Source of the DNA: Thermoplasmata archaeon UBA184
GTDB lineage: Archaea > Thermoplasmatota > Thermoplasmata > Lutacidiplasmatales > UBA184
Direction of reading: 5' to 3'
Assembly (NCBI GenBank): GCA_002495185.1
Contig: DAEB01000040.1
Location: 29,184-93,183 of the forward strand
DNA length: 64,000 nt
Both the position numbers and the translations under genes were made by a program. Of this stretch, positions 16,924-39,833 are shown one piece after another. Position 1 is the stretch's first letter; each line of letters begins with the position of its first letter. Below the pieces are notes generated by a model. It was not told the origin of the DNA. It saw only the letters and a program-made list of their open reading frames with translations, and did no database searches.

Positions 16924-17210
16924 GGCTTCTGGATCCGCGCGCCGTTCAGAGCGCACGAGTTCTAGACAGGTAGGGTGGCGGCCTCACTTTAGGAGTCGGG
17001 GTCGATTCGACGACGGCGGGTGTGCGTCCGCCTCAGTAGGGGGCGCCGGACTCCTCCGCATGGCGCAGAACCTCGTCCTCCCGCACCCCGGGTTCCCCGA
17101 CAGAGCTCTGGTTTAAGCCGTCGCAGTCCTCGTCTCGGCGTTGCCGCAGTACCAAAGATTAATTACCACTGCACGGGCGTTCTCGAGAGAGGACCGGGGT
17201 TGGGATCACG

Positions 17211-18428
17211 ATGAAACGACTCCTCCTCGTCACCGACCCGATCGGCGGGTCGACGTCGGTCCAGTTTGAGATCCTCAGTTCGCTGACGACGGGCCTTCGA
17301 CCCCGCTACGAGCTCTTCGTCTTCACGCCCTACTGCGACGAGGAACGTTCGGCCGCCCTGAGCCAGCTCGGCTGCCAGCTGATCACCCCCCGGTCTTCCG
17401 GCCTCAGCTTCGAGTCCTTCATCCCCGCGGACGGCCGGCGGAACGAGTCGATGCTCTGGGCGACCAGCTGGGTGCGCGAAGCGCTGTTCGCTCGGAACAG
17501 CTCGGACGCCGCTGCGTGCCTGAGGACGCATCCGGTGGACTACACGGTCAACCTCTCCATGACCGTGCCGGCGCATTGTGACCTCTGGTGGATCCTCGGA
17601 ACCCCCCTCGACCAGACCATCCGGGGGATGGCGGGGTTCAACCTGGTCGCACGTCTCGTCGATGCCGCCTCCCATCGTTTGGTCGCTTCGTTGGACGAGA
17701 GGGTGTTGCGCCGGATCCAGTCCCAATCCGTCCGATTCCTGGCGAACTCTCCGTACCTCCAGAGCCTCTACCGAGACCGGGGCTTCCCGGTGGAGGGGGT
17801 CGTCTACACCCTGAAGGACCTCTCGGGATTCCATCCCACGTCGCCGCATCCGACCCGGGATTACGTCCTCCTCTACGTCGGAAAGGAGCTCGACAACCTC
17901 GACTTCCCGGCCCTCGTCCGCGCGGGGGTTCGGATCGTGGGATTCGGGAACAAGGTTCCCGCTGGCACGCAGCTGAAGAAGTTCACCGAATCGATCGAGT
18001 GGCTGGGGCCCGTGAGCCAGAGCGAGCTCATCGACCTCTACGCGAACGCGCTCTTCACCCTGTTCCCCTTCACGTGCGAGCCGATGGGGCTCGTTCCCAT
18101 CGAGTCGATGGCGTGCGGCACCCCGGTCCTCACCTATGCCCGCCAGGGTCCGGGGTCGACGGTCCTCCCGGGCTCCACCGGTTGGCTCGTCGACACCCCC
18201 GACCAGATGCTCGCCAAAGCGAAGGAGATCTGGTCGCGCCGGGATTCCGGCATCTCCCCCGCCGGGTGCATTCGTCGGGCTCGGGAGTTCATCGGCCAGC
18301 GGATGGTGGATGAGCTGGTCGATTGGATCGAGGGGATGTGCGCGTTGGACGGGTCGAACGCCCCCCTCGACCGCGCCCGCCGGGAACTGACGCCGGGCGC
18401 GAAGCCGATGCTGATGGGCCGGGCGTAG
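17211..18428 (+). CDS. GT4-family glycosyltransferase
   Basis: FPFTCEPMGLVPIESMACGTPVLTYARQGPGSTVLPGSTGWLVD is a GT1/GT4 C-terminal domain. The antisense ORF 17163..18629 was rejected as a GC artefact. Confidence 0.75.
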   Translation: MKRLLLVTDPIGGSTSVQFEILSSLTTGLRPRYELFVFTPYCDEERSAALSQLGCQLITPRSSGLSFESFIPADGRRNESMLWATSWVREALFARNSSDAAACLRTHPVDYTVNLSMTVPAHCDLWWILGTPLDQTIRGMAGFNLVARLVDAASHRLVASLDERVLRRIQSQSVRFLANSPYLQSLYRDRGFPVEGVVYTLKDLSGFHPTSPHPTRDYVLLYVGKELDNLDFPALVRAGVRIVGFGNKVPAGTQLKKFTESIEWLGPVSQSELIDLYANALFTLFPFTCEPMGLVPIESMACGTPVLTYARQGPGSTVLPGSTGWLVDTPDQMLAKAKEIWSRRDSGISPAGCIRRAREFIGQRMVDELVDWIEGMCALDGSNAPLDRARRELTPGAKPMLMGRA

Positions 18429-18444
18429 GATCCGGCGCTGCCGG

Positions 18445-19485
18445 CTAGTCCACGCGGATCTGCTTTCGATAGGCCGCGCGACCGATGGAGGGAGCGACGA
18501 GGCAGAGAATCCCGGCGAGAATCGTCGGGAGGCTCTCCCGGACCGGGTACGTGTCCCGGTAGCGGAGGAGTCCGCGAAGCGGTGCCGCGAAGTCTCGCCG
18601 TCTCGAAGCAGGGTCTCGGCAGGCTTCAATCAACTGTACGAGAAGCAGCCGTGCGTCCATGAGGCGGAGGACCTGCGCGTTCCCCGAGCTCGCCACGAAC
18701 TCGCGGATGACGCGGTAATCCCTCTCCGCGAGCTGCGCGAACTCCAGCATCTTCTTCGACCTCGCCTCGGCCAGGCCGGAACCGGCGAGGGACGTGTTGT
18801 CTTCGTGGATCCGGTAGCGCGTCAGGAGCGCGTCGTCCAGGAGGACCGAGTACTCGGATACCAGAGCGGAGAAGAAGAACAGGGTATCGACCGTCGCGAT
18901 GAGACGCTTCAGGTAGGGGAGCGAACGCTCGACGAGTTCGCGACGGACCGCGCTCGAGCTGACGTTGAAGTCCGGGTGGCGAAAGGCGAGCTGGCGCAAG
19001 GATTCCGCGGTCTTCGAGGATGCGAGGAACAGGGTGCCTTTGGAGCGGGAGGGCCCCGACCCGAAACGAGGCACCGAGCGAAGGTCGAGGAACTCCCCCT
19101 TCGGGCCGATGAAGCTCGCCCGGTTCCCGTAGAATCCGAGGTCGCCCCGAGAATCGAAGTACGCCGCGATCGTTCGGAGGCGCGAGGGCTCGAAGAGGTC
19201 GTCGTCGTCCAGCACGAGGAGGATTCGGCCTCGACTTCGAGCCACCCCGGCGGCGACCTTGAGCGCCCCCGGCTGTTCGGTGCAAATGATCGACGTGGCG
19301 CCCACCTCCCGGAAGTACGATTCGAGGGCCGCGTCCTCGTAATTCTTGACGACCACGACCTCGAACTTCGACCGGTCCAGGTCCTGGCGAACGACGCTCT
19401 CCACCGCACCTCGGAGATACTGGACCCGGTTGTGAGCGAGCACGATCACCGAGATCTGGGGGTCGCCGTTCGTTGGCCCGGTCAA
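18445..19485 (-). CDS. GT2-family glycosyltransferase (paralog 1 of 3)
   Basis: ISVIVLAHNRVQYLRGAVESVVRQ...FEVVVVKNYED...ILLVLDDDDLFEP is a GT-A fold with the DxD motif. ~45% identical over its length to ORF 22285..23325. Confidence 0.8.
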   Translation of the reverse strand: MTGPTNGDPQISVIVLAHNRVQYLRGAVESVVRQDLDRSKFEVVVVKNYEDAALESYFREVGATSIICTEQPGALKVAAGVARSRGRILLVLDDDDLFEPSRLRTIAAYFDSRGDLGFYGNRASFIGPKGEFLDLRSVPRFGSGPSRSKGTLFLASSKTAESLRQLAFRHPDFNVSSSAVRRELVERSLPYLKRLIATVDTLFFFSALVSEYSVLLDDALLTRYRIHEDNTSLAGSGLAEARSKKMLEFAQLAERDYRVIREFVASSGNAQVLRLMDARLLLVQLIEACRDPASRRRDFAAPLRGLLRYRDTYPVRESLPTILAGILCLVAPSIGRAAYRKQIRVD

Positions 19486-19791
19486 TGGTCGTCCCCCTCC
19501 AAAGGCTCCCGAGCAGGCCCGGGGTCCTGGTTCGGCCTCCCCTCACTATAACCGTCGCGGTCCCACACAAAACCACGGGGAACGGACAGCGGGCGGGCGA
19601 TCCGATGGATTCACGGCTCTCCACCAACGAGCGGCGGTGGACGAAGGCACCGACCGGACCGGCGCGGCGGAATCCCGTTCGGTACCCGCGGGGCGACCGA
19701 CCGTCTCCAAGAGGGTTCTTATAACCCCGGAACTCGCTGGCAGAACGGGCTGACTTCCGGTGGGTTCACAATCCGGTGGTGGTCGCCGGCT

Positions 19792-22260
19792 GTGGAGACA
19801 AAGAGTGGCACCGATCTCAACGGTGGGCTGCCCGAGCGGAGGAGGGTCGATGAGCCCTGGTCGCCGGCTCGAGCCACTCGACCCGAGCCACCAACGACCC
19901 CGGGACCCCGAGGGATGGTAGGGATGAATCCCCCGCCGGATTCGTCCCAGGAGACCGAGAAAGGTCGAGCGACCGACTCGGAGACAGGCGAGCGCGTCGC
20001 GGGCCTCCTTCCACGGCCCGAGGGTCTCCTGCTGCTCCTCGTCGTCACGGCCTTCTCCCTGCTGTACACGGGGCTCAGCTTCCTTCGATACACCGAATTC
20101 TACGCCGAGAACTGGGACCTCGGAATCAACATGCAGGCGGCGTGGACGAACGACCACGGCTACTTCGCCTTCAGTTCTGCTCTCTCCGAAGGCGTCCGGG
20201 CGCAATCGTTCTACTTCATCCACCCGGCCTACCTGATGTACCCCGTTTCTTGGGTCTACAACCTGGCGCCCTACGCGCTCACGCTGTTCGCGATCCAGGC
20301 GGTGGTCCTGGCCTCGTCGGCGATTCCCCTCTACCTCCTGGGTCGACAGGCGGCCGTGCCCCCGAAGATCGCGTTCGCGGGGATCGCGATCTACCTCGCC
20401 TCTCTCCCCATCCTCTCCGGATTCCTGTTCGACTACCACTGGGAGGCGTTCATTCCCGCGTCGTTCCTTTGGACCTTCTACCTGTGGGGGAAGGGCCGCT
20501 ACTGGTGGGCCGCGCTCCCGGCGACGCTCGGTCTCTTCACGATCGAGGTGTTCGCCGCACTCCTTCTCGCGATCGCCGCATACTTTGCCTGGCCCTACAT
20601 TCGCGCCCTCTTCACGCCTCCGAGGAAGCACTGGGACCAGGTCCGGAGGACCCTCGCCGGTCCGGCACGACCTCTCCTCGGCCTCGTCGCGCTGGCCATC
20701 GTAGGATTCCTCGGGCCCGTCTTCGTGGCGTGGTACTGGCTTCCCTCACTGACCGGCGCGACCCCGGTGTTCCCGCCGCCTCCCCCACACAACATCATCG
20801 GCATTCCGTACTGGGGCGTCTCCGCTTCGAACCTCGGACCTCGCCTGTTCTACTGGCTCATCCTTCTCTCGTCGTTCGGGTTCCTTCCCCTCCTTCACCG
20901 GCAGAGGCTGCTGATCCTGAGCATTCCGTGGGTCCTCTACTCGGTGGTGATGACCCCCAACCCCGCGTTCACTCTGATCCGGTATCACTACTCGTTGATC
21001 GCCGTGGCTCCGCTCGCGATCGGATTCTTGGAAGGATTGGGTGCGATGACCCGCTCATCCGACCGCGAGTCGGTCGCGGGGCTGCCGTTCTGGGGCTGGC
21101 TGGTCCTCCTCGTGCCCGTCTTCGTGGTCGGAGTGATCGCACCTCTCACGTTGATTCGACCGACGACCACGGACCTCTGGGTCGGCCTCGGGATCGCTCT
21201 CTGGGTGCTGGTCGGCTTCTTGGCGATGCGATTCGTCGCGCGCCGGAGGGCATCGACCCCCCCTCGAGACCCCCGCGGAACGGGGCCCGGCCCGGCGAGG
21301 CGTCGCACCGCTCTCCGGGTGACGCTCATCGTCTCCCTCGTCGTGCTGGTCTCGAGCAATATCGCGCTCTCCCCGCTGAATCCGGCGACGTTCCTCGGCC
21401 CGGGGGAGGCGAGCTACTCGTTCACCTACTCGCCGAGTCCGAGCTTCGACCAGATGCCCGGGCTCCTCTCCCACATTCCCTCCGGAGCTTCGGTCTTCGC
21501 ATCGGACAACCTCTTCCCGTTCGTCGCCAACAACCCGCGGGCGTACTCCACGTTCTGGTATCCGGGTCCGATCCCCTATCTTCCGTTCAACGCGTCGAAT
21601 CTGCCGGAGGTCGTCCTCCTGAGCTCGACGCAATGGTTCCTCCCAACGTTCCTGAACGGGGTGCTGTTCAACCAGAGCGTCTACGGGCTCGTCTACGTCA
21701 TCTATGGGAACCAATACCCCGGGTCGATCTTCCTCTACGAACTGGGGTATTCCGGTTCGAGCCACGTGGTCGAGGCAACACCATTTCCGGCGACGACCGT
21801 CCTCTGCGGCAATGATCTTGCGATCGGTCCGTCGGGCTCGGTCGCTCCGCTGTCGGGATCCCGATGCGGGAGCATCATCGAGAGCCGCCCGGCCACGAAC
21901 CTTTCGGGGAACAACGCCACGATCTGGTACGGGCCGTACTCGGACCTGCTCCCGGGCAACTACACCGTCAAGATCTCCCTTCGGGGGGAGTTGAGCGGCC
22001 CCGGGCCGGCCAACTCCGCCGTGCTGGTCATGAACGCCAACGCGGCGGGGGTGCCCTACTGGTACGACGTGGTGGTCTACGAGAATCAGATCTCCCCGAC
22101 GCAGTGGACCAACCTGACGTTCCATTTCTCGCTCGGCGCCCCCCGACCGCTCGCCGAGTGGCGAGGCTACCTCGCCGGTGCGACCGTCAGCGGGACGTTC
22201 GTCCCGGGAAGCTGCCAGCTGAACTACATCGAGGTCGACTACACGTCCGGACCGTACTGA
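19792..22260 (+). CDS. large polytopic membrane protein (822 aa), GT-C-like/DUF2079-like; paralog of 13373..15679
   Basis: FYAENWDLGINMQAAWTNDHG, LTLFAIQAVVLASSAIPLYLLGRQAA, DNLFPFVANNPRAY, SVYGLVYVIYGNQYPGSIFLYELGY and IWYGPYSDLLPGNY are all collinear with the paralog. The start is uncertain (an in-frame Met at 19915 is also possible). The antisense ORFs 19546..20631 and 21055..22125 were rejected. Confidence 0.7.
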   Translation: METKSGTDLNGGLPERRRVDEPWSPARATRPEPPTTPGPRGMVGMNPPPDSSQETEKGRATDSETGERVAGLLPRPEGLLLLLVVTAFSLLYTGLSFLRYTEFYAENWDLGINMQAAWTNDHGYFAFSSALSEGVRAQSFYFIHPAYLMYPVSWVYNLAPYALTLFAIQAVVLASSAIPLYLLGRQAAVPPKIAFAGIAIYLASLPILSGFLFDYHWEAFIPASFLWTFYLWGKGRYWWAALPATLGLFTIEVFAALLLAIAAYFAWPYIRALFTPPRKHWDQVRRTLAGPARPLLGLVALAIVGFLGPVFVAWYWLPSLTGATPVFPPPPPHNIIGIPYWGVSASNLGPRLFYWLILLSSFGFLPLLHRQRLLILSIPWVLYSVVMTPNPAFTLIRYHYSLIAVAPLAIGFLEGLGAMTRSSDRESVAGLPFWGWLVLLVPVFVVGVIAPLTLIRPTTTDLWVGLGIALWVLVGFLAMRFVARRRASTPPRDPRGTGPGPARRRTALRVTLIVSLVVLVSSNIALSPLNPATFLGPGEASYSFTYSPSPSFDQMPGLLSHIPSGASVFASDNLFPFVANNPRAYSTFWYPGPIPYLPFNASNLPEVVLLSSTQWFLPTFLNGVLFNQSVYGLVYVIYGNQYPGSIFLYELGYSGSSHVVEATPFPATTVLCGNDLAIGPSGSVAPLSGSRCGSIIESRPATNLSGNNATIWYGPYSDLLPGNYTVKISLRGELSGPGPANSAVLVMNANAAGVPYWYDVVVYENQISPTQWTNLTFHFSLGAPRPLAEWRGYLAGATVSGTFVPGSCQLNYIEVDYTSGPY

Positions 22261-22284
22261 GCGGCGACCCGCCTCCCACGGTGA

Positions 22285-23325
22285 CTAGCCCCTCTCCGAG
22301 CGTTCCACCTCCCGGGCGTACAGCCATCGACCGAACCCGGGGGCGACGGTGAAGAGCCAGAGAGCGCGTCGCAATCGCGTCTCGGACCGCACGAAGTATG
22401 TCCGCTTCTGGCGAGCGAGGTCTCGACGCAGACGGGCGAACTCCTCCCTCGGCGTGGTCGGTTCTCGAAGGGCCTGGTACGCTCGTTGCACGGCGAGAAC
22501 GCCGTCGGCCTCCTCCGTTGCGCTCCGGTCGCCCGTGGCGCGCACGGCCTCCGCCAGCCTCGCGTAGCTCGGAAGGAAGAGCTTCGAGAATCCGGCGCGG
22601 CCCGCCAGCGGGGAAACGCCGGTCCGGACGTCGAGCGAGATGTTGCGGGGGTGGATCCGATACTCGGTCAGAACCTCGGGCTCGATACACAGGTCGAGCG
22701 GTGACGTGAGCGCCGCAAAGAACACCAGCCCGTCGAGCAGGCGGTAGCCGGCCAGGTCCATCCCCCGGACGAACGGGGTGACGACCTCCTTGCGGACCGC
22801 CATACTGCTGCTGTTGAAATCGATGCCGAGATCCGGAAGCTGGCGGAGCTGCTCCACTCGGCCGGGGCCCGAGAGCACGATTCTTCCCGAGCGGACCGAG
22901 TTCCTTCGCTGGCGGGCGCGGAACTCGCTGTTCGGCAACTCGTTCCCGGCCGCATCGATGACCGCGTAGTTGTTCCGGCAGAACCCGATCCTCTCGCTCG
23001 ACCGAAAGAGCGTTGCGAGAGCGCGAAGCCGCTCGGGACGGTATCGATCGTCGTCGTCCAGAAACGTGAGGACCGTCCCTCGGCTTGCCTCGACCCCCGC
23101 GCGAATGGCCGGCCCGATATCGCCGGGGTCCACCGGAACCGACCGTCCGTTGAGGGCCTGGACGGCCCGCTCGAGCGGTTCGCTCTCATAATCGCGGACC
23201 ACGACGAGCTCGAACTCGGATGGGTCCAGGGTTTGCCGACGCACCGATTCGACCGCTTCGAGAACGTAGTCCGGATGGCGAGATGCCATCACGATGACGC
23301 TGATGTACGGGTCGGTCGGGGTCAT
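22285..23325 (-). CDS. GT2-family glycosyltransferase (paralog 2 of 3)
   Basis: ISVIVMASRHPDYVLEAVESVRRQ...FELVVVRDYES...TVLTFLDDDDRYRPERL. Collinear with 18445..19485 and 38750..39781. Confidence 0.8.
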   Translation of the reverse strand: MTPTDPYISVIVMASRHPDYVLEAVESVRRQTLDPSEFELVVVRDYESEPLERAVQALNGRSVPVDPGDIGPAIRAGVEASRGTVLTFLDDDDRYRPERLRALATLFRSSERIGFCRNNYAVIDAAGNELPNSEFRARQRRNSVRSGRIVLSGPGRVEQLRQLPDLGIDFNSSSMAVRKEVVTPFVRGMDLAGYRLLDGLVFFAALTSPLDLCIEPEVLTEYRIHPRNISLDVRTGVSPLAGRAGFSKLFLPSYARLAEAVRATGDRSATEEADGVLAVQRAYQALREPTTPREEFARLRRDLARQKRTYFVRSETRLRRALWLFTVAPGFGRWLYAREVERSERG

Positions 23326-23448: not shown

Positions 23449-24522
23449 CTACAGCCGGAGCCGGCACGCGTCGCCGACCAGAAGCTCGATCTCCTCCGGC
23501 ACCGGTGCGACCGCCCGGAGGTCGACGTACCGGCCGATCAGGGAGTCTCGCAACCGGACGGGTCCCGAGATTCGAGCTCCTTCGAGGACGATGCTTCGAC
23601 GGATCGCGCACCCGTTCAACTGGACCCCGTCTCCGATCGACGTTCGGGGGCCGATCTCGGTCCGGCTGCCGACCCGAACGTCACGCCCGATCACCACCGG
23701 CCCGTGAACCGATGCCCCCGATTCGATCACCGAATCCTCTCCGAGCGCGACCGGGCCCTTCAACGTGGCCCCCGACTCCACGGTTCCGAGGACTTCGAAC
23801 TCCGCCCCGGGGCGTGAATCGAGCACGAGGTCGTTCGCATGAAGGAGGTCTTCGGGCGCGCCCGTGTCCTTCCACCAACCGTGAACTCGCTGGACCACCA
23901 CGCGGTCGCCCCGCTCGACGAGCGCTCGGATCGCGTCGGTGATCTCGAGCTCTCCTCGTGCGGAGGGCGCGAGACGGGCGATCACGTCGTGGACCTTCGG
24001 GGAGAAGACGTACACCCCCACGAGGGCCTGGTTCCCCTTCGGGTTGCGGGGCTTCTCCTCGATCGACACGATCTTCTTTCCCGAGAATTCGACGATCCCG
24101 TACTGGTGGGGGTCGGCGACCGTCGTCACCCCGATCACGGCGTCCGCACGCTCGCTCTCGAAGAGCTGGAGGAACGACTCGAGGCCATGCTCGAGCAGGT
24201 TGTCGCCGAGGTACATCACGAACGGCTCTTCCGCGAGGAACGAGCGGGCACAGAGGACGGCGTGGGCCAACCCCTTCGGTTGACCCTGGTTGATGTACGT
24301 GACCTCGAGCCCGAACGCGGCACCGTCCCCCACTGCCTCTCGAATCCCTTCGTGGATCGGACCCAGCACGATCCCGACCTCGGAGACCCCGGCGCGCGCG
24401 AGCTGCCGGAGCCCGTAGAAGAGGATCGGCTGGTTCGCGATAGGGATCATGTGCTTGTTCCCGGTCGAGGTCAGCGGGCGAAGGCGCGTTCCGTGGCCGC
24501 CGGCGAGGAGAAGCCCTTTCAT
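23449..24522 (-). CDS. rmlA: glucose-1-phosphate thymidylyltransferase, long form with C-terminal left-handed beta-helix domain
   Basis: MKGLLLAGGHGTRLRPLTSTGNKHMIPIANQPILFYGLRQL is the G-x-G-T-R-L nucleotidyltransferase signature. Hexapeptide repeats lie in the C-terminal third. Start set at the internal Met (24522); the 484-aa ORF in the track has a spurious N-terminal extension. Confidence 0.85.
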   Translation of the reverse strand: MKGLLLAGGHGTRLRPLTSTGNKHMIPIANQPILFYGLRQLARAGVSEVGIVLGPIHEGIREAVGDGAAFGLEVTYINQGQPKGLAHAVLCARSFLAEEPFVMYLGDNLLEHGLESFLQLFESERADAVIGVTTVADPHQYGIVEFSGKKIVSIEEKPRNPKGNQALVGVYVFSPKVHDVIARLAPSARGELEITDAIRALVERGDRVVVQRVHGWWKDTGAPEDLLHANDLVLDSRPGAEFEVLGTVESGATLKGPVALGEDSVIESGASVHGPVVIGRDVRVGSRTEIGPRTSIGDGVQLNGCAIRRSIVLEGARISGPVRLRDSLIGRYVDLRAVAPVPEEIELLVGDACRLRL

Positions 24523-24742
24523 GGACCCATCTCCGGAGGCAAGACCCCTTCTAAGCGTTCGCCAAGACGGCCCGCGCCTGCTTGTCCCCCGGCCCCCGAC
24601 GGACCCGCGGTCCGCCTCGGTCGGAGCGTGGGAATCGTTTTTACGGCGAAGCGCGACATGGGGCCTCGTAGGCGGCTGTGAAGGAAGTTCCTGTCCCGGT
24701 CCGGGACCCCGATGACACCCCGATCTTCGCCCGAAGGGGTCG

Positions 24743-26071
24743 ATGTCCGAGAGCGTAGGAGCGGCGCCGGCATCGCAGCCGCCATCGGGACTCAAGCGCG
24801 TGCTCGTCTTCCCCGGGGGGACGGAGGTCGGTCTCGAGATCTGGCGCTCGCTCCGCTGGCACCGACAGGTCGAGCTGTATTCGGCGGGGGCACCGGTTTC
24901 CAACCACGCCCCCTACGTGTTCGCGCGGCACTTCGAGGTGCCGATGGTGACCGACCCCCGCTGGTTCCCGATCCTGAAGGAGATCGTGGAGCGGGAGCGG
25001 ATCGACTTCATTTTTCCGGGCCATGACGACATCGTCGAAGCGCTGGCCCAGCACCGAGATGACCTTCGCGCCCTCGTCGTGACGTCCCCCACCGAAACCT
25101 GCGAAACGTGCCGATACAAGTCGCGGACGTACGATGCGCTCTCGGGCGTCGTCCCGATCCCCCGCCGGTACTCCGCCGCCGCCGAGGTCGACGCGTTCCC
25201 CGTGTTCGCCCGGCCCGACCGCGGTCAGGGCTCCCAGGACGCGCATCTCGTCGCGGACGCGTCCGAGCTGGAGGCGCTGCTGCTTCGCGCCCCCGGCCGC
25301 TACATCGTCACGGAGTACCTTCCGGGCGAGGAGTTCACGGTCGATTGCCTCACGGACCGAGAGGGGAGGCTGATCTACTGCGCCGGGCGCCGTCGCATTC
25401 GCGTTCGCAACGGCATCTCGGTCGACACCGTGACGGTGGACAATCCGACGTTCCAGGAGTATGCGACGGCCATCAACCGTCGCCTTCGGCTTCGGGGGGG
25501 CTGGTTCTTCCAGGTGAAGTTCTCGAAGCAAGGGACCCTCACGCTCCTCGAGGTCGCGCCCCGCATCGCGGGGGCGATGGCCCTGGACCGGGTGCGCGGA
25601 GTGAACATCGCCCTGCTGAGCTTGTTCATCGTCCAAGGGATGGACGTGGAGGTGCTGCCGAACCCGATGCCGGTCGAGATGGACCGGGCGCTCACGAACC
25701 GGTATCGGTTCGACCTCCGATTCACTCGGGCGTACCTCGACCTGGACGACTCGCTGATCGTTCGGGGTCAAGTGAACACCGAGCTCGTCCAGTTCCTGTT
25801 CCAATGCGTGAATCGCGGGGTTCGCTTGACGCTCCTCACTCGCCACGCGGGAGACCCGCTCGAAACCCTCCGTCGATTCCGCCTCGCCGGCGTGTTCGAC
25901 GAGATACGAACCGTGCCGGCGGGAACGCCGAAGAGCTCCGCGATCGATCAGACCCGCGACGCGATCTTCATCGATGACAGCTTCGCCGAGCGGCGGGAGG
26001 TCGCGCGGGCCACGGGCCTGCCGACCTTCGACAGCAGCATGGTCGAGCTTCTTCTCGACGACCGGTCCTGA
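24743..26071 (+). CDS. ATP-grasp domain protein fused to a C-terminal HAD-like hydrolase domain
   Basis: Central YIVTEYLPGEEFTVDCLTDREGRLIYCAGRRR..GGWFFQVKF is an ATP-grasp fold. C-terminal ~140 aa (VRLTLLTRHAGDP...DAIFIDDSFAERREVA) looks like a HAD-type hhhhDD motif. The antisense ORF 24641..26080 was rejected. Confidence 0.6.
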   Translation: MSESVGAAPASQPPSGLKRVLVFPGGTEVGLEIWRSLRWHRQVELYSAGAPVSNHAPYVFARHFEVPMVTDPRWFPILKEIVERERIDFIFPGHDDIVEALAQHRDDLRALVVTSPTETCETCRYKSRTYDALSGVVPIPRRYSAAAEVDAFPVFARPDRGQGSQDAHLVADASELEALLLRAPGRYIVTEYLPGEEFTVDCLTDREGRLIYCAGRRRIRVRNGISVDTVTVDNPTFQEYATAINRRLRLRGGWFFQVKFSKQGTLTLLEVAPRIAGAMALDRVRGVNIALLSLFIVQGMDVEVLPNPMPVEMDRALTNRYRFDLRFTRAYLDLDDSLIVRGQVNTELVQFLFQCVNRGVRLTLLTRHAGDPLETLRRFRLAGVFDEIRTVPAGTPKSSAIDQTRDAIFIDDSFAERREVARATGLPTFDSSMVELLLDDRS

Positions 26072-26133
26072 ATCACCCACCGGGCCGGTGGCCCACGAAC
26101 GCCCTTATCTGCGGCAGGGACCTTTGAGCGAGG

Positions 26134-27255
26134 ATGGGCCACCGCAGGTCGAAGAAGCCGGTGCTACCGGTGACCCTCCCGAGCCTTCCGCCGTTCGAAG
26201 AGTACACCGAGCTCCTTCGGGAAGTCTGGGATACCCATTGGCTGACGAACCAGGGGCCGCTCGCCGACCGTCTGGAGGCGGGCCTCCGGCGGTACCTGCC
26301 GTCCCCGCACGTCGACGCGGTGACGAACGGCACGCTGGCCCTTCAACTGAGCTACCGAGCGGTCTTTCCCCGCAAGGGAGTGGTGATCACCACCCCCTTC
26401 ACGTTCGCGGCGACGACGACATCTCTCGTCTGGGAGGGCTACACGCCACGGTTCGTCGACATCGACCCGGTCACTTTCAACCTGGACCCGGCTCTCGTCG
26501 ACGCCGCCCTCCGCGACGATGTGGTGGGGATCGTCGCGGTCCATGTCTTTGGGAACCCGGCGGGCGGCCCCGCGCTGTCGCGGCTCGCGGCCTCACGGAA
26601 CGTGAAGCTGGTGTTCGATGCGGCTCACGCCTTCGGGGTCCGGACCCGCCCCGTCCCCCTCTGGTCGCTGGGGAACGCCTCGACGTTGAGCTTCCACGCC
26701 ACGAAGAGCTTCCACTCCTTTGAGGGCGGCGCGGTCGTCACCTCCGAGGCGAACGTCTCGCGCCGGGTGCGCCGTCTTCGGAACTTTGGGCTCCGGGGCC
26801 CGGAAGAGGTCGTGGAGGCGGGCATCAACGCGAAGTTGAACGAAGCTCAGGCCGCGATGGGCCTTCTCAACCTCCGATACATCGATGGCTGGATCCGCCT
26901 CCGCAAGGAACGCTACGACCGGTACCGCTCCGAACTCGAGGGGACGGGCGGGGTCCAGTTCCAGGAGCTGGCAAAGTGCCGCTACAACTACACGTACATG
27001 CCGATCCTTCTGCCGACGAAGAGGCTTCGGGACCGCGTCGCCCGCGATCTGGAACGCTCCGGAGTCCGCCCGCGCAAGTACTTCTTTCCCCCGACGCACG
27101 TCGCGCCGTATCTCCGTGGGTCGAGGAGAGCGTCCTGCCCGGTCGCGGAGAGCGTCTCCTCCCGTGTCCTCTGCCTGCCGCTCCACCCTGCCCTTGGGGT
27201 TTCGGACGTCCGCCGCATCTCGGCGATCGTGCGGACGGTCGTTCAGGGTCGATAG
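26134..27255 (+). CDS. DegT/DnrJ/EryC1/StrS-family PLP-dependent sugar aminotransferase
   Basis: LSFHATKSFHSFEGGAVV (PLP-lysine region) and the N-terminal LP..LPPFEEY...W...WLTNQGPL are typical of nucleotide-sugar aminotransferases. Confidence 0.85.
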   Translation: MGHRRSKKPVLPVTLPSLPPFEEYTELLREVWDTHWLTNQGPLADRLEAGLRRYLPSPHVDAVTNGTLALQLSYRAVFPRKGVVITTPFTFAATTTSLVWEGYTPRFVDIDPVTFNLDPALVDAALRDDVVGIVAVHVFGNPAGGPALSRLAASRNVKLVFDAAHAFGVRTRPVPLWSLGNASTLSFHATKSFHSFEGGAVVTSEANVSRRVRRLRNFGLRGPEEVVEAGINAKLNEAQAAMGLLNLRYIDGWIRLRKERYDRYRSELEGTGGVQFQELAKCRYNYTYMPILLPTKRLRDRVARDLERSGVRPRKYFFPPTHVAPYLRGSRRASCPVAESVSSRVLCLPLHPALGVSDVRRISAIVRTVVQGR

Positions 27256-27335
27256 CCCTCGGAGCTCCCGTGCGGACGCGGGCGGCTCGAGACTTTACTA
27301 ACACCGGTGTCTGTGGCCCGGTCAGGTAGGCAACG

Positions 27336-28310
27336 GTGAAGGTAGTCCTCACGGGAGGCGCCGGCTTCATCGGCTCGAACTTGGCCCATCACTGGGCCGC
27401 CCGGCACCCCGAAGACACCGTGCTCGTGGTGGACGCCCTCACGTACGCCGGTCGCCGGGAGTCCCTCGCGGACCTGAACCATCGGCCCGGCTTCTCGTTC
27501 TTGAAGGGGGACATCACGGACCCCCACGTCTGGGACGAGGCCCTTCCGGGCACCGACCTCGTGCTGCACCTGGCGGCGGAGACGCACAACGACCGGGCGA
27601 TCGCGGACCCGCTCGTCTTCGTCCGAACCAACGTCCTCGGGACCGCCCAGCTTCTCGAGGGATGCCGCCGGCACGACGTGCCGAGGTTGCACCACGTCTC
27701 CACGGACGAGGTGTTTGGCTCCCTCGCCCTCGACTCTCCCGACCGATTCGACGAGAACTCCCCCTACCGGCCCCGCGGGCCTTACTCCGCATCGAAGGCG
27801 TCCGCCGACCACCTCGTCCGCGCCTGGTCCGAGACGTACGGGCTCGCGTACACCCTTTCGAACTGCGGCAACAACTTCGGTCCCTTTCAGCATCCCGAGA
27901 AGTTCATTCCCCTCGCGATCACGAGAGCCCTCCGGGGAGGCCGCATCCCGTTGTACGGGGACGGGAAGAACGTACGAGACTGGATCTACGTCATCGATCA
28001 CTGCGAGGCGGTCGACCTCATTGCCCACCGCGGCCAGGTCGGTTCCACCTACCTGGTTTCGGCCGAAAACGAGCTCTCGAACCTCGAGGTCCTGAGACGC
28101 CTACTCGCTCTTCTCGGAACGGACTGGAAGATCGTCGAGCACGTCACCGACCGGCCCGGCCACGACCGAAGGTACGCTCTCGACCCCGGCCGTTTGAAGG
28201 CGGAGCTAGGATGGCAGCCTCGATTCACGTTCGACGAGGGGCTCGAGGCCACGGTCGAATGGTACCGTGCCCACGAGACGTGGTGGTCTCCCCTCCTCGC
28301 TCCGTCGTAA
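27336..28310 (+). CDS. rmlB: dTDP-glucose 4,6-dehydratase
   Basis: MKVVLTGGAGFIGSNLAHH (GxxGxxG Rossmann motif), YSASKASADHLVRAW (YxxxK) and DGKNVRDWIYVIDHCEAV are diagnostic of RmlB. Confidence 0.9.
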   Translation: MKVVLTGGAGFIGSNLAHHWAARHPEDTVLVVDALTYAGRRESLADLNHRPGFSFLKGDITDPHVWDEALPGTDLVLHLAAETHNDRAIADPLVFVRTNVLGTAQLLEGCRRHDVPRLHHVSTDEVFGSLALDSPDRFDENSPYRPRGPYSASKASADHLVRAWSETYGLAYTLSNCGNNFGPFQHPEKFIPLAITRALRGGRIPLYGDGKNVRDWIYVIDHCEAVDLIAHRGQVGSTYLVSAENELSNLEVLRRLLALLGTDWKIVEHVTDRPGHDRRYALDPGRLKAELGWQPRFTFDEGLEATVEWYRAHETWWSPLLAPS

Positions 28311-28398: not shown

Positions 28399-29934
28399 TT
28401 GGTTCGACCTCCGATCCAGGAAGGTCGCCGGGTACCAGTTACGCGGAGCTCACGGGAGGTGCCGTTCCGGCCCGACGTCGTGGTCGTCGTGCTCGATTGC
28501 GTACGCGCCCAAGACTGCCCGGGCGGAGCCGATCCCGCCCCGAACTTGCCCGTGATGCAAGGACTTCGCCACGACTCCGTCGTCTTCCCGAAAGCCGTGG
28601 CTCCGGCGCCCTGGACCATTCCCTCGCACTTTTCGATCACATCCGGGCTCTATCCCTGGCAGCACGGGGTCCACGCCCAGAATCGGCTCGTGCCTCGGGC
28701 GGGGCTCCCCTCGACGGTTCGCGACCTTCGGTGCTCGGGCTACAGTACCGCGTTGTTCTCGGCCAATGCGTTCTTGGGATCCGATTCCGCCTTCGACCGC
28801 GACTTTGAGCTCTCGACGGTCGCGACGCCGAGGGAGCTCCTGGTCCGGCGAGCCCCCCACTCCCGTTCCAAGCCCAAGAGGAGAGGCTCCCAAGGTGGCA
28901 GGCTTCTCGGGTCCGAGATCATCGGGAATCCGGTAGGTAGGATCCTTCGACGGTACCCGTTCCTGTTCGACGTGGTGAATCGGACCTACCGCCAGGTCCG
29001 GCAGCTGAGCGGACCGCCGGTGGTGGCGCCCTGGATCGAGCCCGCCTTCCGAGAATGGCTGCGAACGGTGCCCCGGAGCCAACCGCTCTTCGGAATGGTC
29101 AACTTCCTCGATGCCCACGAACCGTACATGACGGACCCCGAGTCCACCCGGAAGCTCACCGATTGGTTCCGGGAGGCCCGGATCTCCCAACGGGCGTGGA
29201 GGTATCTGGGAGATTCGAGGGCGGAGAGTCGTTCGCTCAGCCAGCTCTTCCGGAGGTTGTACCAACGGACCCTGAGCACGCTCGACCACCGGGTCGGGAA
29301 CCTGATTCGAGCGCTCAAGGAGGCGGGTCGGTGGGATTCGACCCTGTTCGTACTCACCAGTGACCACGGTCAGGCACTGTTGGAGAAGGGATTCTTGTTT
29401 CATGGAACCCGCCTCGACGAGGAGATCGCTCGGGTTCCCCTGACCGTACGGTTCCCCTCGGGGTCCCACGGTGGGTCCACGGCGAAGGGGTGGGCGAGCC
29501 TGGTGGACATCCTTCCTACGATTCATCACGCCGCTGGTTTGGCGGTGCCGAGTTCGTGCGAGGGACGCGACCTGGTCGACATGCTCGACCGCGAGCGGGA
29601 GGATGCGGTCTACTCCGTCGGAGACGGGGTGTTCGACCTGCAATCGGCCACGCGGTTTCTGCCCCGAACCACGCTCGATACTCTGAACACCTTGAGCGCG
29701 GCCGTCTATCGGAACGAGTTCAAGGTGCGGTTCCATCGACACCCTGACACGTTCGAGGTCTACAATCTTGAAAACGACCCGGGCGAAACGAACAACCTCT
29801 GGCCCCTAGAGGAACCGCTCGTCCGAGCGGCCGGCCAAGAGGCGCAACGGGTCGTCGAGATCATGTCCCACACGGATGCGGGCCGGCGGGACCGGAGCGT
29901 CGCCGCGCGACTCGCATCCTGGGGCTACCACTGA
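28399..29934 (+). CDS. sulfatase-like alkaline-phosphatase-superfamily protein with non-canonical T-x-P-x-H active-site motif
   Basis: PWTIPSHFSITSGLYPW aligns to the sulfatase C-T-P-S-R-AALLTGR region with Cys replaced by Thr and Arg by His. The C-terminal metal-binding SDHGQ is conserved. The start is uncertain (TTG at 28399 or GTG near 28459, which follows GGGAGG). Paralog of 46562..48085. Confidence 0.75.
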   Translation: MVRPPIQEGRRVPVTRSSREVPFRPDVVVVVLDCVRAQDCPGGADPAPNLPVMQGLRHDSVVFPKAVAPAPWTIPSHFSITSGLYPWQHGVHAQNRLVPRAGLPSTVRDLRCSGYSTALFSANAFLGSDSAFDRDFELSTVATPRELLVRRAPHSRSKPKRRGSQGGRLLGSEIIGNPVGRILRRYPFLFDVVNRTYRQVRQLSGPPVVAPWIEPAFREWLRTVPRSQPLFGMVNFLDAHEPYMTDPESTRKLTDWFREARISQRAWRYLGDSRAESRSLSQLFRRLYQRTLSTLDHRVGNLIRALKEAGRWDSTLFVLTSDHGQALLEKGFLFHGTRLDEEIARVPLTVRFPSGSHGGSTAKGWASLVDILPTIHHAAGLAVPSSCEGRDLVDMLDREREDAVYSVGDGVFDLQSATRFLPRTTLDTLNTLSAAVYRNEFKVRFHRHPDTFEVYNLENDPGETNNLWPLEEPLVRAAGQEAQRVVEIMSHTDAGRRDRSVAARLASWGYH

Positions 29935-39781: not shown

Positions 39782-39833
39782 ATTGCACTCAGCCTGGAAA
39801 GGGCCACAGTTTCGTGATTTCTCGGCCATTACC

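What the first reader, a model, noticed from the sequence alone, without database searches (positions are those of the whole stretch)
23449..28310. dTDP-4-amino-4,6-dideoxyhexose branch with an ATP-grasp-HAD fusion enzyme
RmlA (23449..24522), a DegT-family aminotransferase (26134..27255) and RmlB (27336..28310) together predict dTDP-4-amino-4,6-dideoxy-D-glucose (viosamine-type). There is no RmlC/RmlD, so no rhamnose. Embedded between them is a 442-aa ATP-grasp protein with a C-terminal HAD-like domain (24743..26071). ATP-grasp enzymes form amide bonds, so the plausible product is an N-aminoacyl or N-acyl amino-dideoxy sugar, with the HAD domain perhaps removing a phosphate from an acyl-phosphate or phospho-sugar intermediate. 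I cannot match this fusion architecture to a characterised enzyme.
Basis: inference. Interest (0 to 1): 0.6.

Follow-up and report, generated by a model that had tools for sequence, protein, structure and literature searches.

The report
Viosamine genes with ATP-grasp–phosphatase fusion
A sugar-making gene cluster holds a widespread but biochemically untested two-domain enzyme (an ATP-dependent ligase fused to a phosphatase) that almost always sits beside the enzyme making the amino sugar viosamine, and probably attaches a small acid such as glyceric acid to that sugar.

Summary
All four genes lie at the stated coordinates. RmlA (long form) and RmlB pass their curated family cut-offs. The aminotransferase is VioA/DesI-like. 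The 442-aa protein is an ATP-grasp enzyme with a real C-terminal capless HAD domain: the catalytic motifs are invariant in homologues and every top fold match is a HAD phosphatase.

The fusion is not a one-off. Thousands of full-length homologues (~50% identity) occur across bacteria and archaea. The conserved partner is the aminotransferase, which lies within 3 kb in 55 of 61 species loci. RmlA/RmlB are not conserved partners, and VioB-type N-acetyltransferases are absent.

A homologue, Fcs, sits in the Acidovorax avenae K1 flagellin glycosylation island. [quoted passage not shown]

In Bacillus altitudinis the pair lies inside the wall teichoic acid locus with RmlA, RmlB, TagD and TagF-like genes. 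A Bacillus teichoic acid containing Qui4N amide-linked to glyceric acid has been described.

My best explanation is that the ATP-grasp domain N-acylates dTDP-viosamine with a phosphorylated hydroxy acid, probably 3-phosphoglycerate, and the HAD domain then removes the phosphate. This is inferred and has not been demonstrated. Interest is moderate to good: no enzyme is assigned to this step in what I could search.

The parts
23449..24522 (-). RmlA, long form: glucose-1-phosphate thymidylyltransferase with a C-terminal left-handed beta-helix. It is transcribed divergently from the other three genes.
   Evidence: TIGR01208 rmlA_long 398.5 bits, above the 320.25 cut-off. Pfam NTP_transferase E 3e-53 plus Hexapep. 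Same gene call on the JGI contig.
24523..24742 (.). 220-bp divergent intergenic region between rmlA and the ATP-grasp-HAD gene. It is presumed to hold the promoters (inferred, not tested).
   Evidence: Read directly from the sequence; no promoter test was run.
24743..26071 (+). Bifunctional ATP-grasp-HAD protein, 442 aa, a homologue of Acidovorax avenae Fcs. Proposed dTDP-viosamine N-acyl ligase/phosphatase.
   Evidence: Pfam ATPgrasp_Ter 72.5 bits and ATP-grasp_3. More than 1,500 and more than 4,000 full-length homologues in two searches. AlphaFold pLDDT 92.4. 48% identical to the P. avenae homologue and 42% to the B. altitudinis homologue.
24794..25657 (+). ATP-grasp ligase domain, residues ~18-305. 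It includes an invariant Arg-rich strand (R216, R218, R220) and E270/R274. R157 replaces the near-invariant ATP-site Lys.
   Evidence: Foldseek E 1e-17 to 1e-18 to biotin carboxylases, 2pn1 (TM 0.75), PylC, PurK and RizA. Invariant columns. K157R is unique among the 224 of 240 homologues in which the motif was found.
25715..26071 (+). Capless (C0) HAD phosphatase-like domain, residues ~325-442.
   Evidence: Invariant D333, D335, D336, K397, D411, D412, S413, E416 and R417, with T366 nearly invariant. Domain model pLDDT 89.9. The best Foldseek matches are MDP-1, KDN9P/KDO8P phosphatases and T4 PNK. This HAD subfamily is found almost only at the C-terminus of this fusion.
26134..27255 (+). VioA/DesI-like PLP aminotransferase (dTDP-4-keto-6-deoxy-D-glucose 4-aminotransferase). 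The PLP lysine lies in SFHATK (K191).
   Evidence: Pfam DegT E 4e-81. Best NCBIfam match DesI, 282 bits. Best PDB match DesI 2po3. 38% identical to E. coli VioA and 41% to the A. avenae-type partner.
27336..28310 (+). RmlB, dTDP-glucose 4,6-dehydratase.
   Evidence: TIGR01181 430 bits, above the 365.1 cut-off.
28399..29934 (+). Possible accessory gene: a soluble 'sulfatase'-family (alkaline-phosphatase superfamily) protein. It has T-I-P-S-H where formylglycine sulfatases have C/S-x-P-x-R. The start is uncertain (JGI aa, from about 28555).
   Evidence: Pfam Sulfatase E 4e-25. Motif read from the translation. A 36%-identical homologue lies near the fusion gene in the Thermoplasmata locus L014, and unrelated sulfatase-like genes directly follow the fusion gene in L045 and L061.
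15832..23325 (.). Adjacent glycan-assembly genes: GT4 (15832-16983, -), GT4 (17211-18428, +), GT2 (18445-19485, -), DUF2079 membrane protein (19792-22260, +) and GT2 (22285-23325, -). These are the likely users of the modified sugar.
   Evidence: Pfam hits; gene calls.

Best explanation
The region encodes a nucleotide-sugar branch.

Proposed pathway:
1. RmlA and RmlB make dTDP-4-keto-6-deoxy-D-glucose.
2. The VioA/DesI-like aminotransferase converts it to dTDP-4-amino-4,6-dideoxy-D-glucose (dTDP-viosamine, Qui4N).
3. The ATP-grasp domain of the 442-aa protein takes the place that the acetyltransferase VioB holds in E. coli. It activates a carboxylic acid with ATP as an acyl phosphate and lets the C4 amine attack it, forming an amide.
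4. The acid most likely carries a phosphate ester. The best guess is 3-phospho-D-glycerate, whose acyl phosphate is 1,3-bisphosphoglycerate.
5. The fused capless HAD domain removes that phosphate after ligation (or just before it). The product is dTDP-4-(glyceroylamido)-4,6-dideoxyglucose.
6. Neighbouring GT2/GT4/DUF2079 enzymes build this sugar into a cell-surface glycan.

Shown here: gene identities, domain folds, conserved catalytic motifs, conserved pairing with VioA-type genes, and absence of VioB.

Inferred: that the enzyme acts on dTDP-viosamine, that it forms an amide, the identity of the acid, and the order of the two steps.
For: 1. Pathway enzymes. RmlA and RmlB pass their curated cut-offs. 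The aminotransferase is closest to DesI and VioA. The window has no RmlC/RmlD.

2. Conserved module. Among 61 species loci with at least 3 kb on both sides, a DegT gene lies within 3 kb in 55 and within 10 kb in 58. It is usually adjacent and on the same strand. Twenty partners are at least 60% identical to biochemically characterised E. coli O7 VioA.

3. A VioB-type N-acetyltransferase is present in only 1 of 81 loci, and weakly. Without the fusion enzyme the amine has no acylating enzyme.

4. Both domains look catalytically competent. ATP-grasp fold matches reach E 1e-18. All four HAD motifs are invariant or nearly so, including the Asp+2 acid/base typical of phosphatases. The HAD fold matches are capless sugar-acid phosphate phosphatases and MDP-1. 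This HAD subfamily occurs essentially only in this fusion, which argues that the two steps are coupled.

5. Genetics. In the A. avenae K1 flagellin island (Fgt, Fmt, Fcs, Fst), deleting the methyltransferase, the 'carbamoylphosphate synthase' Fcs and the transaminase together removes about 730 Da from flagellin (PMC4622738). The same island is present in locus L065, where the Fst homologue is 64% identical to VioA.

6. The glycerate clue. In B. altitudinis the pair lies in the wall teichoic acid locus as TagD, TagF, RmlA, RmlB, a TagF-like gene, the fusion gene, VioA, GT2 and TagGH. A review describes a Bacillus subtilis VKM B-762 teichoic acid whose backbone holds Qui4N amide-linked to glyceric acid plus glycerol phosphate (PMC9912281). 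Nothing else in that locus could supply the glyceroyl group. Pseudomonas loci independently combine VioA, the fusion gene, a TagD-like gene and a glycerophosphotransferase.

7. About 50% identity across bacterial and archaeal phyla fits a universal metabolite as the co-substrate.
Against: - No biochemical assay exists for any family member. The A. avenae deletion removed three genes at once.
- The Bacillus link joins a glycan structure from one unsequenced strain, known to me only through a review, to a locus in another species.
- TagD or glycerophosphotransferase genes accompany the module in only 6 of the 81 species loci, plus the separately fetched B. altitudinis locus.
- The A. avenae mass loss (730 Da over four sites, about 182 each) does not cleanly equal a methylated glyceroyl-viosamine (247 Da). 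The ~540-Da chain fits dHex2 + 247, but it fits a 3-hydroxybutyryl analogue (245 Da) equally well.
- Fusions of the enzyme to FemAB-like GNAT or WbqC domains could hint at an aminoacyl group with a free amine rather than glycerate.
- The window's copy has Arg instead of the near-invariant Lys157.
- ATP-grasp fold matches are generic and say nothing about substrate.
Confidence: 0.5

Rival explanations
1. Same logic, different acid. The ATP-grasp domain ligates a phosphorylated amino acid (O-phosphoserine or O-phosphothreonine), or a plain amino acid such as Gly or Ala, to the viosamine amine. The HAD domain dephosphorylates it, giving an N-aminoacyl viosamine that can then be N-acetylated.
For: N-aminoacyl Qui4N/Qui3N sugars exist; E. 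coli O121 has Qui4N-Gly-Ac made by a vioA-wbqC-GNAT set (the structure is from my own knowledge). Some family members carry a C-terminal FemAB-like GNAT domain (P0089, P0092) or a WbqC domain (L047), which would suit a further acylation of a free amine. Phosphoserine phosphatases are HAD enzymes (general knowledge).
Against: Such fusions are rare: a few among thousands. Most loci, including this window, have no GNAT next to the module. The only known glycan that maps onto a locus with this module contains glyceric acid, not an amino acid.
Confidence: 0.17
2. PurT/PurK-like chemistry. The ATP-grasp domain uses formate, acetate or bicarbonate to N-formylate, N-acetylate or N-carboxylate viosamine. 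The HAD domain has a separate or housekeeping role.
For: PurK and biotin carboxylase are among the top fold matches. The ~182 Da lost per site in the A. avenae triple mutant is close to N-acetyl- or N-formyl-O-methyl-viosamine (187 Da) (arithmetic is mine).
Against: It gives no reason for an obligatory, subfamily-specific phosphatase domain with all catalytic residues invariant. The fold matches are generic to ATP-grasp enzymes. It does not explain the Bacillus teichoic acid locus.
Confidence: 0.1
3. Campylobacter Cj1438/Cj1437/Cj1435-type system. The DegT protein makes a small phosphorylated amine (e.g. serinol phosphate from dihydroxyacetone phosphate). The ATP-grasp domain amidates a uronic acid with it, and the HAD domain removes the phosphate.
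For: The same three protein families (DegT-type PLP enzyme, ATP-grasp ligase, HAD phosphatase) co-operate in the C. jejuni HS:2 capsule. This is from my knowledge of the Raushel laboratory's work and was not retrieved here.
Against: The partner aminotransferases are VioA orthologues, up to 74% identical to E. coli VioA. RmlA/RmlB without RmlC/RmlD flank the module here and in several other loci. No UDP-glucose dehydrogenase or uronic acid genes are consistently linked.
Confidence: 0.05
4. The ATP-grasp-HAD protein is unrelated to the sugar pathway, or it acts as a kinase/phosphatase or phosphomutase pair on a sugar hydroxyl rather than as an amide ligase.
For: Some ATP-grasp proteins are kinases (general knowledge). 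There is no direct evidence of amide formation.
Against: The near-obligate, same-strand adjacency to VioA-type genes across many phyla and both prokaryotic domains excludes an unrelated housekeeping role. A kinase fused to a phosphatase would be futile. The amine would be left without an acyl group in clusters that lack any acyltransferase.
Confidence: 0.06

Closest known systems
Fcs ('carbamoylphosphate synthase'), with Fst (transaminase) and Fmt (methyltransferase), in the Acidovorax avenae K1 flagellin glycosylation island (Hirai et al. 2014, PMC4622738)
   Same: Same protein family. The P. avenae homologue is 48% identical over 95% of the window protein. It has the same pairing with a VioA-type aminotransferase. 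Genetic evidence shows that the three-gene module enlarges a surface glycan.
   Different: The setting is a flagellin island with a methyltransferase and a giant glycosyltransferase, not an RmlA/RmlB/GT/DUF2079 cluster. Only a triple deletion was made. The glycan structure and enzyme activity are unknown. The HAD domain was not recognised there.
VioA/VioB pathway to dTDP-Qui4NAc (E. coli O7, Shigella dysenteriae 7), and DesI of Streptomyces venezuelae
   Same: RmlA, RmlB and a 4-aminotransferase give dTDP-viosamine. The window enzyme is 38% identical to VioA and its best solved relative is DesI.
   Different: The acetyl-CoA-dependent VioB is replaced by an ATP-dependent ligase-phosphatase fusion. 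VioB is absent from 80 of 81 loci with the module.
Campylobacter jejuni HS:2 capsule amidation: Cj1438 ATP-grasp amidoligase plus Cj1435 HAD phosphatase (plus DegT-type Cj1436/1437)
   Same: An ATP-grasp amide ligase uses a phosphorylated co-substrate and a HAD phosphatase removes the phosphate afterwards.
   Different: The proteins are separate. There the sugar supplies the carboxylate (glucuronate) and the small molecule supplies the amine. Here the sugar supplies the amine. The PLP partners here are VioA orthologues.
FkbH-type glyceryl loading (HAD-like domain acting on 1,3-bisphosphoglycerate)
   Same: It uses a HAD-fold domain to turn a phosphoglyceryl unit into a glyceryl acyl donor. The acyl phosphate of 3-phosphoglycerate is the same molecule, 1,3-bisphosphoglycerate (my own knowledge).
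   Different: FkbH transfers to a carrier protein thiol with no ATP-grasp domain. No sequence relationship was shown here.
Pseudomonas syringae modified-viosamine pathway (VioA, VioB, VioT, VioR, VioS, ACP, VioM)
   Same: A terminal N-acylated, methylated viosamine on flagellin. VioA plus a methyltransferase are shared.
   Different: There the acyl group (3-hydroxybutyryl) is built on a carrier protein and transferred by an acyltransferase. Here a single ATP-grasp-HAD protein takes that place.
Structural-genomics ATP-grasp protein 2pn1 and the NCBIfam PRK12767 'carbamoyl phosphate synthase-like' families
   Same: These are the closest sequence and fold relatives of the ligase domain (PDB E 1.5e-8, TM 0.75; NCBIfam E 5e-35).
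   Different: They lack the HAD domain and their function is unknown. The window protein scores below every curated cut-off (121 bits against 390; 109 against 218).

Membership tests
ATP-grasp superfamily (ATP-dependent carboxylate-amine/thiol ligases) | Three-subdomain ATP-grasp fold recognised by family models | tested here: met
   Pfam ATPgrasp_Ter 72.5 bits (cut-off 29.1) and ATP-grasp_3 37.1 bits (cut-off 23.2). Foldseek E 1e-17 to 1e-18 to biotin carboxylases, 2pn1, PylC and PurK.
ATP-grasp superfamily (ATP-dependent carboxylate-amine/thiol ligases) | Conserved nucleotide/Mg site residues (B-domain Lys, hinge Glu, C-domain Glu-x-x-x-Arg) | tested here: inconclusive
   E191, E270 and R274 are present and (nearly) invariant. 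The Lys of the PVFxKPD motif is Arg157 in the window protein only (1 of 224). This is a conservative change whose effect is unknown.
ATP-grasp superfamily (ATP-dependent carboxylate-amine/thiol ligases) | ATP-dependent ligation through an acyl phosphate | not testable with these tools
   Needs an enzyme assay.
HAD superfamily phosphatases | Four catalytic motifs: DxDx(T/V), S/T, K, (G/S)DxxxD or DD | tested here: met
   D333-L-D335-D-S337, T366, K397 and D411-D412 are present. They are invariant or nearly so in 43 aligned homologues. Motif I was found in 233 of 240 homologues.
HAD superfamily phosphatases | Rossmann-like HAD core fold | tested here: met
   Domain model pLDDT 89.9. Foldseek probability 1.0 to MDP-1 (E 1e-4), KDN9P and KDO8P phosphatases, T4 PNK and others. 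There is no cap domain, so it is type C0.
HAD superfamily phosphatases | Recognition by curated sequence models | tested here: not met
   No Pfam hit for the window domain, only faint HAD hits (E 0.01-0.05) in 1-2 of 25 homologues. No PDB sequence hit even with a profile. It is a divergent subfamily.
dTDP-4-keto-6-deoxy-D-glucose 4-aminotransferase (VioA/DesI) | DegT/AAT type-I fold with the PLP lysine | tested here: met
   Pfam DegT 273.6 bits. The SFHATK lysine aligns with that of VioA.
dTDP-4-keto-6-deoxy-D-glucose 4-aminotransferase (VioA/DesI) | Closest to characterised 4-aminotransferases of the gluco series, not to C3 aminotransferases or 3-dehydrases | tested here: met
   DesI is the top match by a wide margin in PDB (214 bits against 143) and in NCBIfam (282 against 175). 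38% identity to E. coli VioA.
dTDP-4-keto-6-deoxy-D-glucose 4-aminotransferase (VioA/DesI) | Curated equivalog cut-off (TIGR04427 DesI, 650 bits) | tested here: not met
   282 bits. A 64%-identical VioA orthologue also scores only 294 bits, so this cut-off is too strict to judge VioA-type enzymes.
dTDP-4-keto-6-deoxy-D-glucose 4-aminotransferase (VioA/DesI) | Product stereochemistry (equatorial C4 amine, viosamine rather than 4-amino-fucose) | not testable with these tools
   Needs an assay or NMR.
RmlA (long form) and RmlB | Curated equivalog scores | tested here: met
   TIGR01208 398.5 bits above 320.25; TIGR01181 430 bits above 365.1.
Fcs-type ATP-grasp-HAD family paired with VioA | Full-length two-domain architecture of about 425-440 aa | tested here: met
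   95-100% coverage by hundreds of listed homologues. The HAD subfamily lies at residues ~300-430 of such proteins.
Fcs-type ATP-grasp-HAD family paired with VioA | VioA/DesI-type aminotransferase gene adjacent | tested here: met
   In the window the gene starts 63 bp downstream on the same strand. Across species the partner lies within 3 kb in 55 of 61 loci.
Campylobacter Cj1438/Cj1437/Cj1435 glucuronamide system | PLP partner acts on a small phosphorylated ketone; the acceptor is a uronic acid | tested here: not met
   The partners are VioA orthologues. RmlA/RmlB supply a 4-keto-6-deoxy sugar. No uronic-acid genes are consistently linked. The Cj sequences themselves were not available for comparison.
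D-Ala-D-Ala ligase-type housekeeping ATP-grasp | Ddl family signature and peptidoglycan gene context | tested here: not met
   No Ddl model among the Pfam or NCBIfam hits for the window protein. The context is a glycan cluster.

The most novel reading that the evidence does not exclude
The fusion protein would be the missing enzyme for N-glyceroyl (hydroxyacyl) decoration of amino sugars. It would be a bifunctional 3-phosphoglycerate:dTDP-viosamine ligase/phosphatase that draws the acyl group straight from glycolysis without CoA or a carrier protein. The same enzyme would then underlie the amide-containing wall teichoic acid of the Bacillus pumilus group, the immune-evasive flagellin glycans of Acidovorax and some Pseudomonas, and surface glycans of many uncultured bacteria and archaea.
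Probability: 0.3. Interest if true: 0.72.

Novelty: new variant of a known kind. Interest (0 to 1): 0.58.

Why it matters
N-acyl groups on 6-deoxy-amino sugars shape antigenicity, phage recognition and, for plant pathogens, escape from flagellin sensing. The known routes use acyl-CoA or carrier-protein donors.

An ATP-grasp ligase fused to a dedicated phosphatase would be a different, CoA-independent way to acylate a nucleotide sugar. As late as 2017 the genetic basis of N-glyceroyl substitution was described as unknown (PMC5378307). I found no paper in the searchable library that links ATP-grasp enzymes to it.

The family is large (thousands of members in bacteria and archaea), well conserved and annotated only as 'ATP-grasp domain-containing protein' or 'carbamoyl phosphate synthase large subunit'. 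One assay would therefore re-annotate many genomes. It would also give a handle on an unusual Bacillus teichoic acid and on the Acidovorax flagellin glycan that blocks rice immunity.

The hypothesis is directly testable with commercially accessible substrates.

Tried and rejected
- **Campylobacter-type glucuronamide system** (DegT makes serinol phosphate). Rejected because the partner aminotransferases are VioA orthologues and RmlA/RmlB flank the module.

- **P. aeruginosa b-type / C. difficile type A flagellin glycans** (phospho-N-methylthreonine). I read PMC11833859. That pathway uses a nucleotidyltransferase, a phosphotransferase and a methyltransferase, with no ATP-grasp enzyme. It is unrelated.

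- **Homologue in E. coli O-antigen clusters of known structure.** A DNA-level search of 5,426 genomes found only vioA and nothing for the fusion gene.

- **Sequence-only identification of the C-terminal domain.** There was no PDB hit even with a profile, and Pfam gave only faint HAD hits. Structure prediction was needed.

- **Full-length fold search.** It returned only generic ATP-grasp matches with no substrate clue.

- **A. avenae mass data as a way to identify the acyl group.** The numbers (730 Da total; chains of about 540 Da) cannot separate the candidates.

- **The original paper on the Bacillus VKM B-762 teichoic acid.** It is not held, so the structure is cited from a review.

- **tRNA and Rfam scans of the window.** Nothing was found, so no taxonomic anchor came from RNA genes. 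I ran no further search on taxonomy.

- **The enterobacterial flagellin-island survey** (PMC4875605). It does not mention this enzyme.

Full report
**1. The observation**

The window is 65-70% G+C around the finding. A stop-to-stop scan with codon-position G+C picks out one coding frame for each of the four genes, with GC3 of 0.81-0.86. The coordinates in the finding are exact, and they match the JGI gene calls on the source metagenome contig, 3300039002 Ga0120198_0000106.

- RmlA, 23449-24522, is on the minus strand and divergent from the other three. It is the long form with a C-terminal hexapeptide beta-helix: TIGR01208 398.5 bits, cut-off 320.
- RmlB, 27336-28310, scores 430 bits on TIGR01181, cut-off 365.
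- The aminotransferase, 26134-27255, is a DegT-family enzyme (E 4e-81). Its best curated model and best solved relative are both DesI, the dTDP-4-keto-6-deoxyglucose 4-aminotransferase (282 bits; 2po3 214 bits against 143 for the runner-up).
- tblastn with RmlC and RmlD sequences finds nothing in the 64-kb window.

The statement 'RmlA + RmlB + 4-aminotransferase, no rhamnose branch' therefore holds.

**2. The 442-aa protein**

Residues ~56-302 match ATPgrasp_Ter and ATP-grasp_3. They also match, below cut-off, the NCBIfam 'carbamoyl phosphate synthase-like' PRK12767 models. The only PDB sequence relative is the structural-genomics protein 2pn1.

With a 43-sequence alignment, AlphaFold gives a confident model (pLDDT 92.4). 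Its fold matches are generic ATP-grasp enzymes: biotin carboxylases, 2pn1 at TM 0.75, PylC, PurK and RizA.

The last ~120 residues have no significant Pfam hit and no PDB sequence hit, even with a profile. Two observations still establish a HAD domain.
- The alignment shows invariant D333, D335, D336, K397, D411, D412, S413, E416 and R417, and a nearly invariant T366. These are HAD motifs I-IV, including the Asp+2 residue typical of phosphatases. Motif I is found in 233 of 240 homologues.
- The isolated domain folds with pLDDT 89.9. Its top-ranked Foldseek matches are almost all HAD phosphatases of the capless type: MDP-1, KDN-9-P and KDO-8-P phosphatases, and T4 polynucleotide kinase.

One oddity is that the window's copy alone has Arg157 where 223 of the 224 homologues in which this motif was found have Lys, in the PVFxKPD motif of the nucleotide site.

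**3. The fusion recurs, and its constant partner is the aminotransferase**

Two protein searches return more than 1,500 and more than 4,000 relatives. Almost all are 420-445 aa and cover 95-100% of the query at about 50% identity. Named sources include Thermoplasmata, Methanosarcina, Methanobacterium, Armatimonadota, Acidobacteriota, Planctomycetota, Nostoc, Geomonas, Chitinophaga, Patescibacteria, Pseudomonas, Paracidovorax, Enterobacteriaceae, Paenibacillus and Bacillus.

A profile of the HAD domain alone, searched against 1.84 billion representative proteins, finds only 932 hits. Nearly all of the 150 listed lie at positions ~300-430 of proteins of this size, or in short proteins that I take to be fragments. 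This HAD subfamily therefore exists essentially only inside this fusion.

In 81 loci from different species:
- A homologue of the window's aminotransferase is present in 71, RmlA in 7 and RmlB in 15.
- The aminotransferase is adjacent (<200 bp) in 38 and within 1.5 kb in 23 more (22 of them on the same strand).
- Among the 61 loci with at least 3 kb on both sides, it lies within 3 kb in 55 and within 10 kb in 58.

Other recurrent neighbours are GT2 enzymes, Wzm/Wzt or Wzx transport genes, and one of two small SAM methyltransferases.

**4. The partners are viosamine synthases, and VioB is missing**

The partner gene from an enterobacterial locus matches E. coli vioA even at the DNA level.
- The Paracidovorax avenae partner is 64% identical to E. 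coli O7 VioA.
- Twenty partners are at least 60% identical to VioA.
- The window enzyme is 38% identical to VioA and 41% to the Paracidovorax protein.

The DesI NCBIfam cut-off (650 bits) is missed by the window enzyme (282 bits). It is missed equally by the 64%-identical VioA orthologue (294 bits), so that failure is not informative.

In E. coli O7, vioA is followed by the acetyltransferase vioB. In O121 it is followed by wbqC and a GNAT. Next to the fusion gene, a VioB-like protein appears in only 1 of 81 loci, at 24% identity. The ATP-grasp-HAD protein thus sits where the N-acylating enzyme should be.

**5. Published genetics**

The Acidovorax avenae K1 flagellin glycosylation island consists of four genes:
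- Fgt, a glycosyltransferase;
- Fmt, a 27-kDa methyltransferase;
- Fcs, a 50.8-kDa 'carbamoylphosphate synthase';
- Fst, a 41.8-kDa sugar transaminase.

Deleting Fmt, Fcs and Fst together lowers the flagellin mass by about 730 Da and lets rice recognise the flagellin (PMC4622738).

Locus L065 (Paracidovorax avenae) shows this island: two flagellin genes, the VioA orthologue, the fusion gene (457 aa), a 244-aa methyltransferase and a giant protein on the other strand. Fcs is therefore a member of this family, 48% identical to the window protein. The glycan structure was not solved, and the HAD domain was not noticed.

**6. Which acid? The glycerate lead**

In Bacillus altitudinis the fusion gene lies inside the wall teichoic acid locus. 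The gene order is TagB-like, TagA, TagD, a TagE-like glycosyltransferase, TagF, RmlA, RmlB, a second TagF-like glycerophosphotransferase, the fusion gene, the VioA-like gene, a GT2, TagG, TagH, then MnaA and a LytR-family ligase.

A review of glycan structures states that a 'novel type' of wall teichoic acid from Bacillus subtilis VKM B-762 has an amide bond in its backbone. In it, glyceric acid is amide-linked to Qui4N, together with glycerol 1-phosphate (PMC9912281, citing Shashkov et al. 2011). Every component of that polymer has a matching gene in the B. altitudinis locus, provided the fusion protein supplies the glyceroyl amide. Nothing else there could.

Three Pseudomonas loci independently place a TagD-like cytidylyltransferase and a CDP-glycerol glycerophosphotransferase directly after VioA and the fusion gene. 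Three enterobacterial loci also carry a TagD-like gene, and in two of them a sulfatase-like gene as well.

The chemistry is economical.
- 3-Phosphoglycerate is universal, which fits the ~50% identity of the family across both prokaryotic domains.
- Its acyl phosphate is 1,3-bisphosphoglycerate.
- After amide formation the fused phosphatase would free the hydroxyl, which a TagF-like enzyme can then extend.

This is the same two-step logic as the Campylobacter Cj1438 ligase with the Cj1435 HAD phosphatase, and it resembles FkbH-type glyceryl loading (both from my own knowledge).

The A. avenae masses are compatible. Two deoxyhexoses plus methylated glyceroyl-viosamine come to 539 Da, against a reported ~540 Da per chain. 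They are not discriminating, because a 3-hydroxybutyryl analogue gives 537 Da, and the 730-Da loss divides awkwardly over four sites.

**7. Caveats and rivals**

No member of the family has been assayed. The Bacillus argument joins a structure from an unsequenced strain, known to me through a review (the original paper is not held), to a locus in another species.

- Rare fusions of the enzyme to FemAB-like GNAT domains or to a WbqC domain keep alive an aminoacyl variant, for example phosphoserine.
- A PurT/PurK-like use of formate, acetate or bicarbonate cannot be excluded, but it leaves the obligatory phosphatase unexplained.
- A Campylobacter-type uronamide system is disfavoured by the VioA orthology.
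- A housekeeping role is excluded by the conserved synteny.

**8. Verdict**

Three corrections apply.
- The conserved unit is VioA plus the fusion gene, not the whole RmlA-RmlB set.
- The phosphatase more plausibly removes a phosphate ester from the acyl group than attacks an acyl phosphate.
- The family is not unknown, since it is the Fcs gene of Acidovorax.

The enzyme activity itself remains uncharacterised. The proposed reaction would be a new, CoA-independent way of acylating a nucleotide sugar.

Noticed in passing
window 38000-50000: A low-G+C island (52-57% against 65-70% elsewhere) forms a second glycan-assembly block. It holds GT2 (38750-39781), an unannotated 1136-aa ORF (39681-43091), GT4 (43027-44259, -), a SAM methyltransferase (44465-45319), GT4 (45358-46485), a second sulfatase-like gene (46562-48085) and GT2 (48249-49145, -). 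The methyltransferase is weakly similar (31% over 101 aa) to the Fmt-type methyltransferase that accompanies the fusion gene elsewhere. The composition suggests horizontal acquisition.
   Followed up: partly
window 28399-29934 (also 46562-48085): This soluble 'sulfatase'-family protein lies directly after RmlB. It has T-I-P-S-H where formylglycine sulfatases have C/S-x-P-x-R, so it is probably a Thr-nucleophile phosphoryl- or sulfuryl-transfer enzyme rather than a classical sulfatase. A 36%-identical homologue lies near the fusion gene in the Thermoplasmata locus L014. Unrelated sulfatase-like genes are translationally coupled to the fusion gene in Phytobacter (L045) and Enterobacter (L061), next to a TagD-like gene.
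   Followed up: partly
window 25211-25213 (residue 157 of the ATP-grasp-HAD protein): The window's copy is the only one of the 224 homologues in which the PVFxKPD motif was found (240 were scanned) that has Arg instead of the near-invariant Lys in that nucleotide-site motif.
   Followed up: partly
window 13373-15691 (-) and 19792-22260 (+): Two large DUF2079 membrane proteins (about 770-820 aa) bracket the GT4/GT2 genes next to the sugar branch. They may be the membrane glycosyltransferases or polymerases of this glycan.
   Followed up: no
L047:9989-12049; proteins P0089, P0092: Rare longer versions of the fusion protein exist. One has a C-terminal WbqC-like domain, the family that follows vioA in the E. 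coli O121 cluster (L085:10083-10799). Two have a C-terminal FemAB-like GNAT domain. These are possible 'Rosetta stone' hints of a further acylation step.
   Followed up: partly
L062:8871-16096, with L056 and L052 (Pseudomonas): These Pseudomonas loci encode VioA, the fusion protein, a TagD-like cytidylyltransferase, a 415-aa CDP-glycerol glycerophosphotransferase and a ~1000-1200-aa FgtA-like GT2. This is teichoic-acid-type glycerol phosphate machinery in Gram-negative glycosylation islands. I assume these are flagellin glycosylation islands, by analogy with the FgtA-like enzyme; flagellin genes were not checked there.
   Followed up: partly
L086:1-21281 (Bacillus altitudinis CP012482.1, 583910-605190): The wall teichoic acid locus carries RmlA, RmlB, the fusion gene and a VioA-like gene between two TagF-like genes and TagGH. 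It may encode the amide-containing teichoic acid reported for 'B. subtilis' VKM B-762.
   Followed up: partly
window 56423-57640: This GDP-mannose 4,6-dehydratase scores 399.7 bits on TIGR01472, just under the 415 cut-off. The ORF as read here carries an ~85-residue N-terminal extension that may simply reflect a start called too far upstream. It points to a further deoxy-sugar branch (fucose, rhamnose or perosamine type) in the same region.
   Followed up: no
window 3386-4252, and about 34960-35620 (mapped from L001:20218-20879): Toxin-antitoxin-type genes flank the glycan region. They are an AbiEi-family antitoxin and a PIN-domain/RHH pair, the latter taken from the JGI calls for the same contig.
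   Followed up: no
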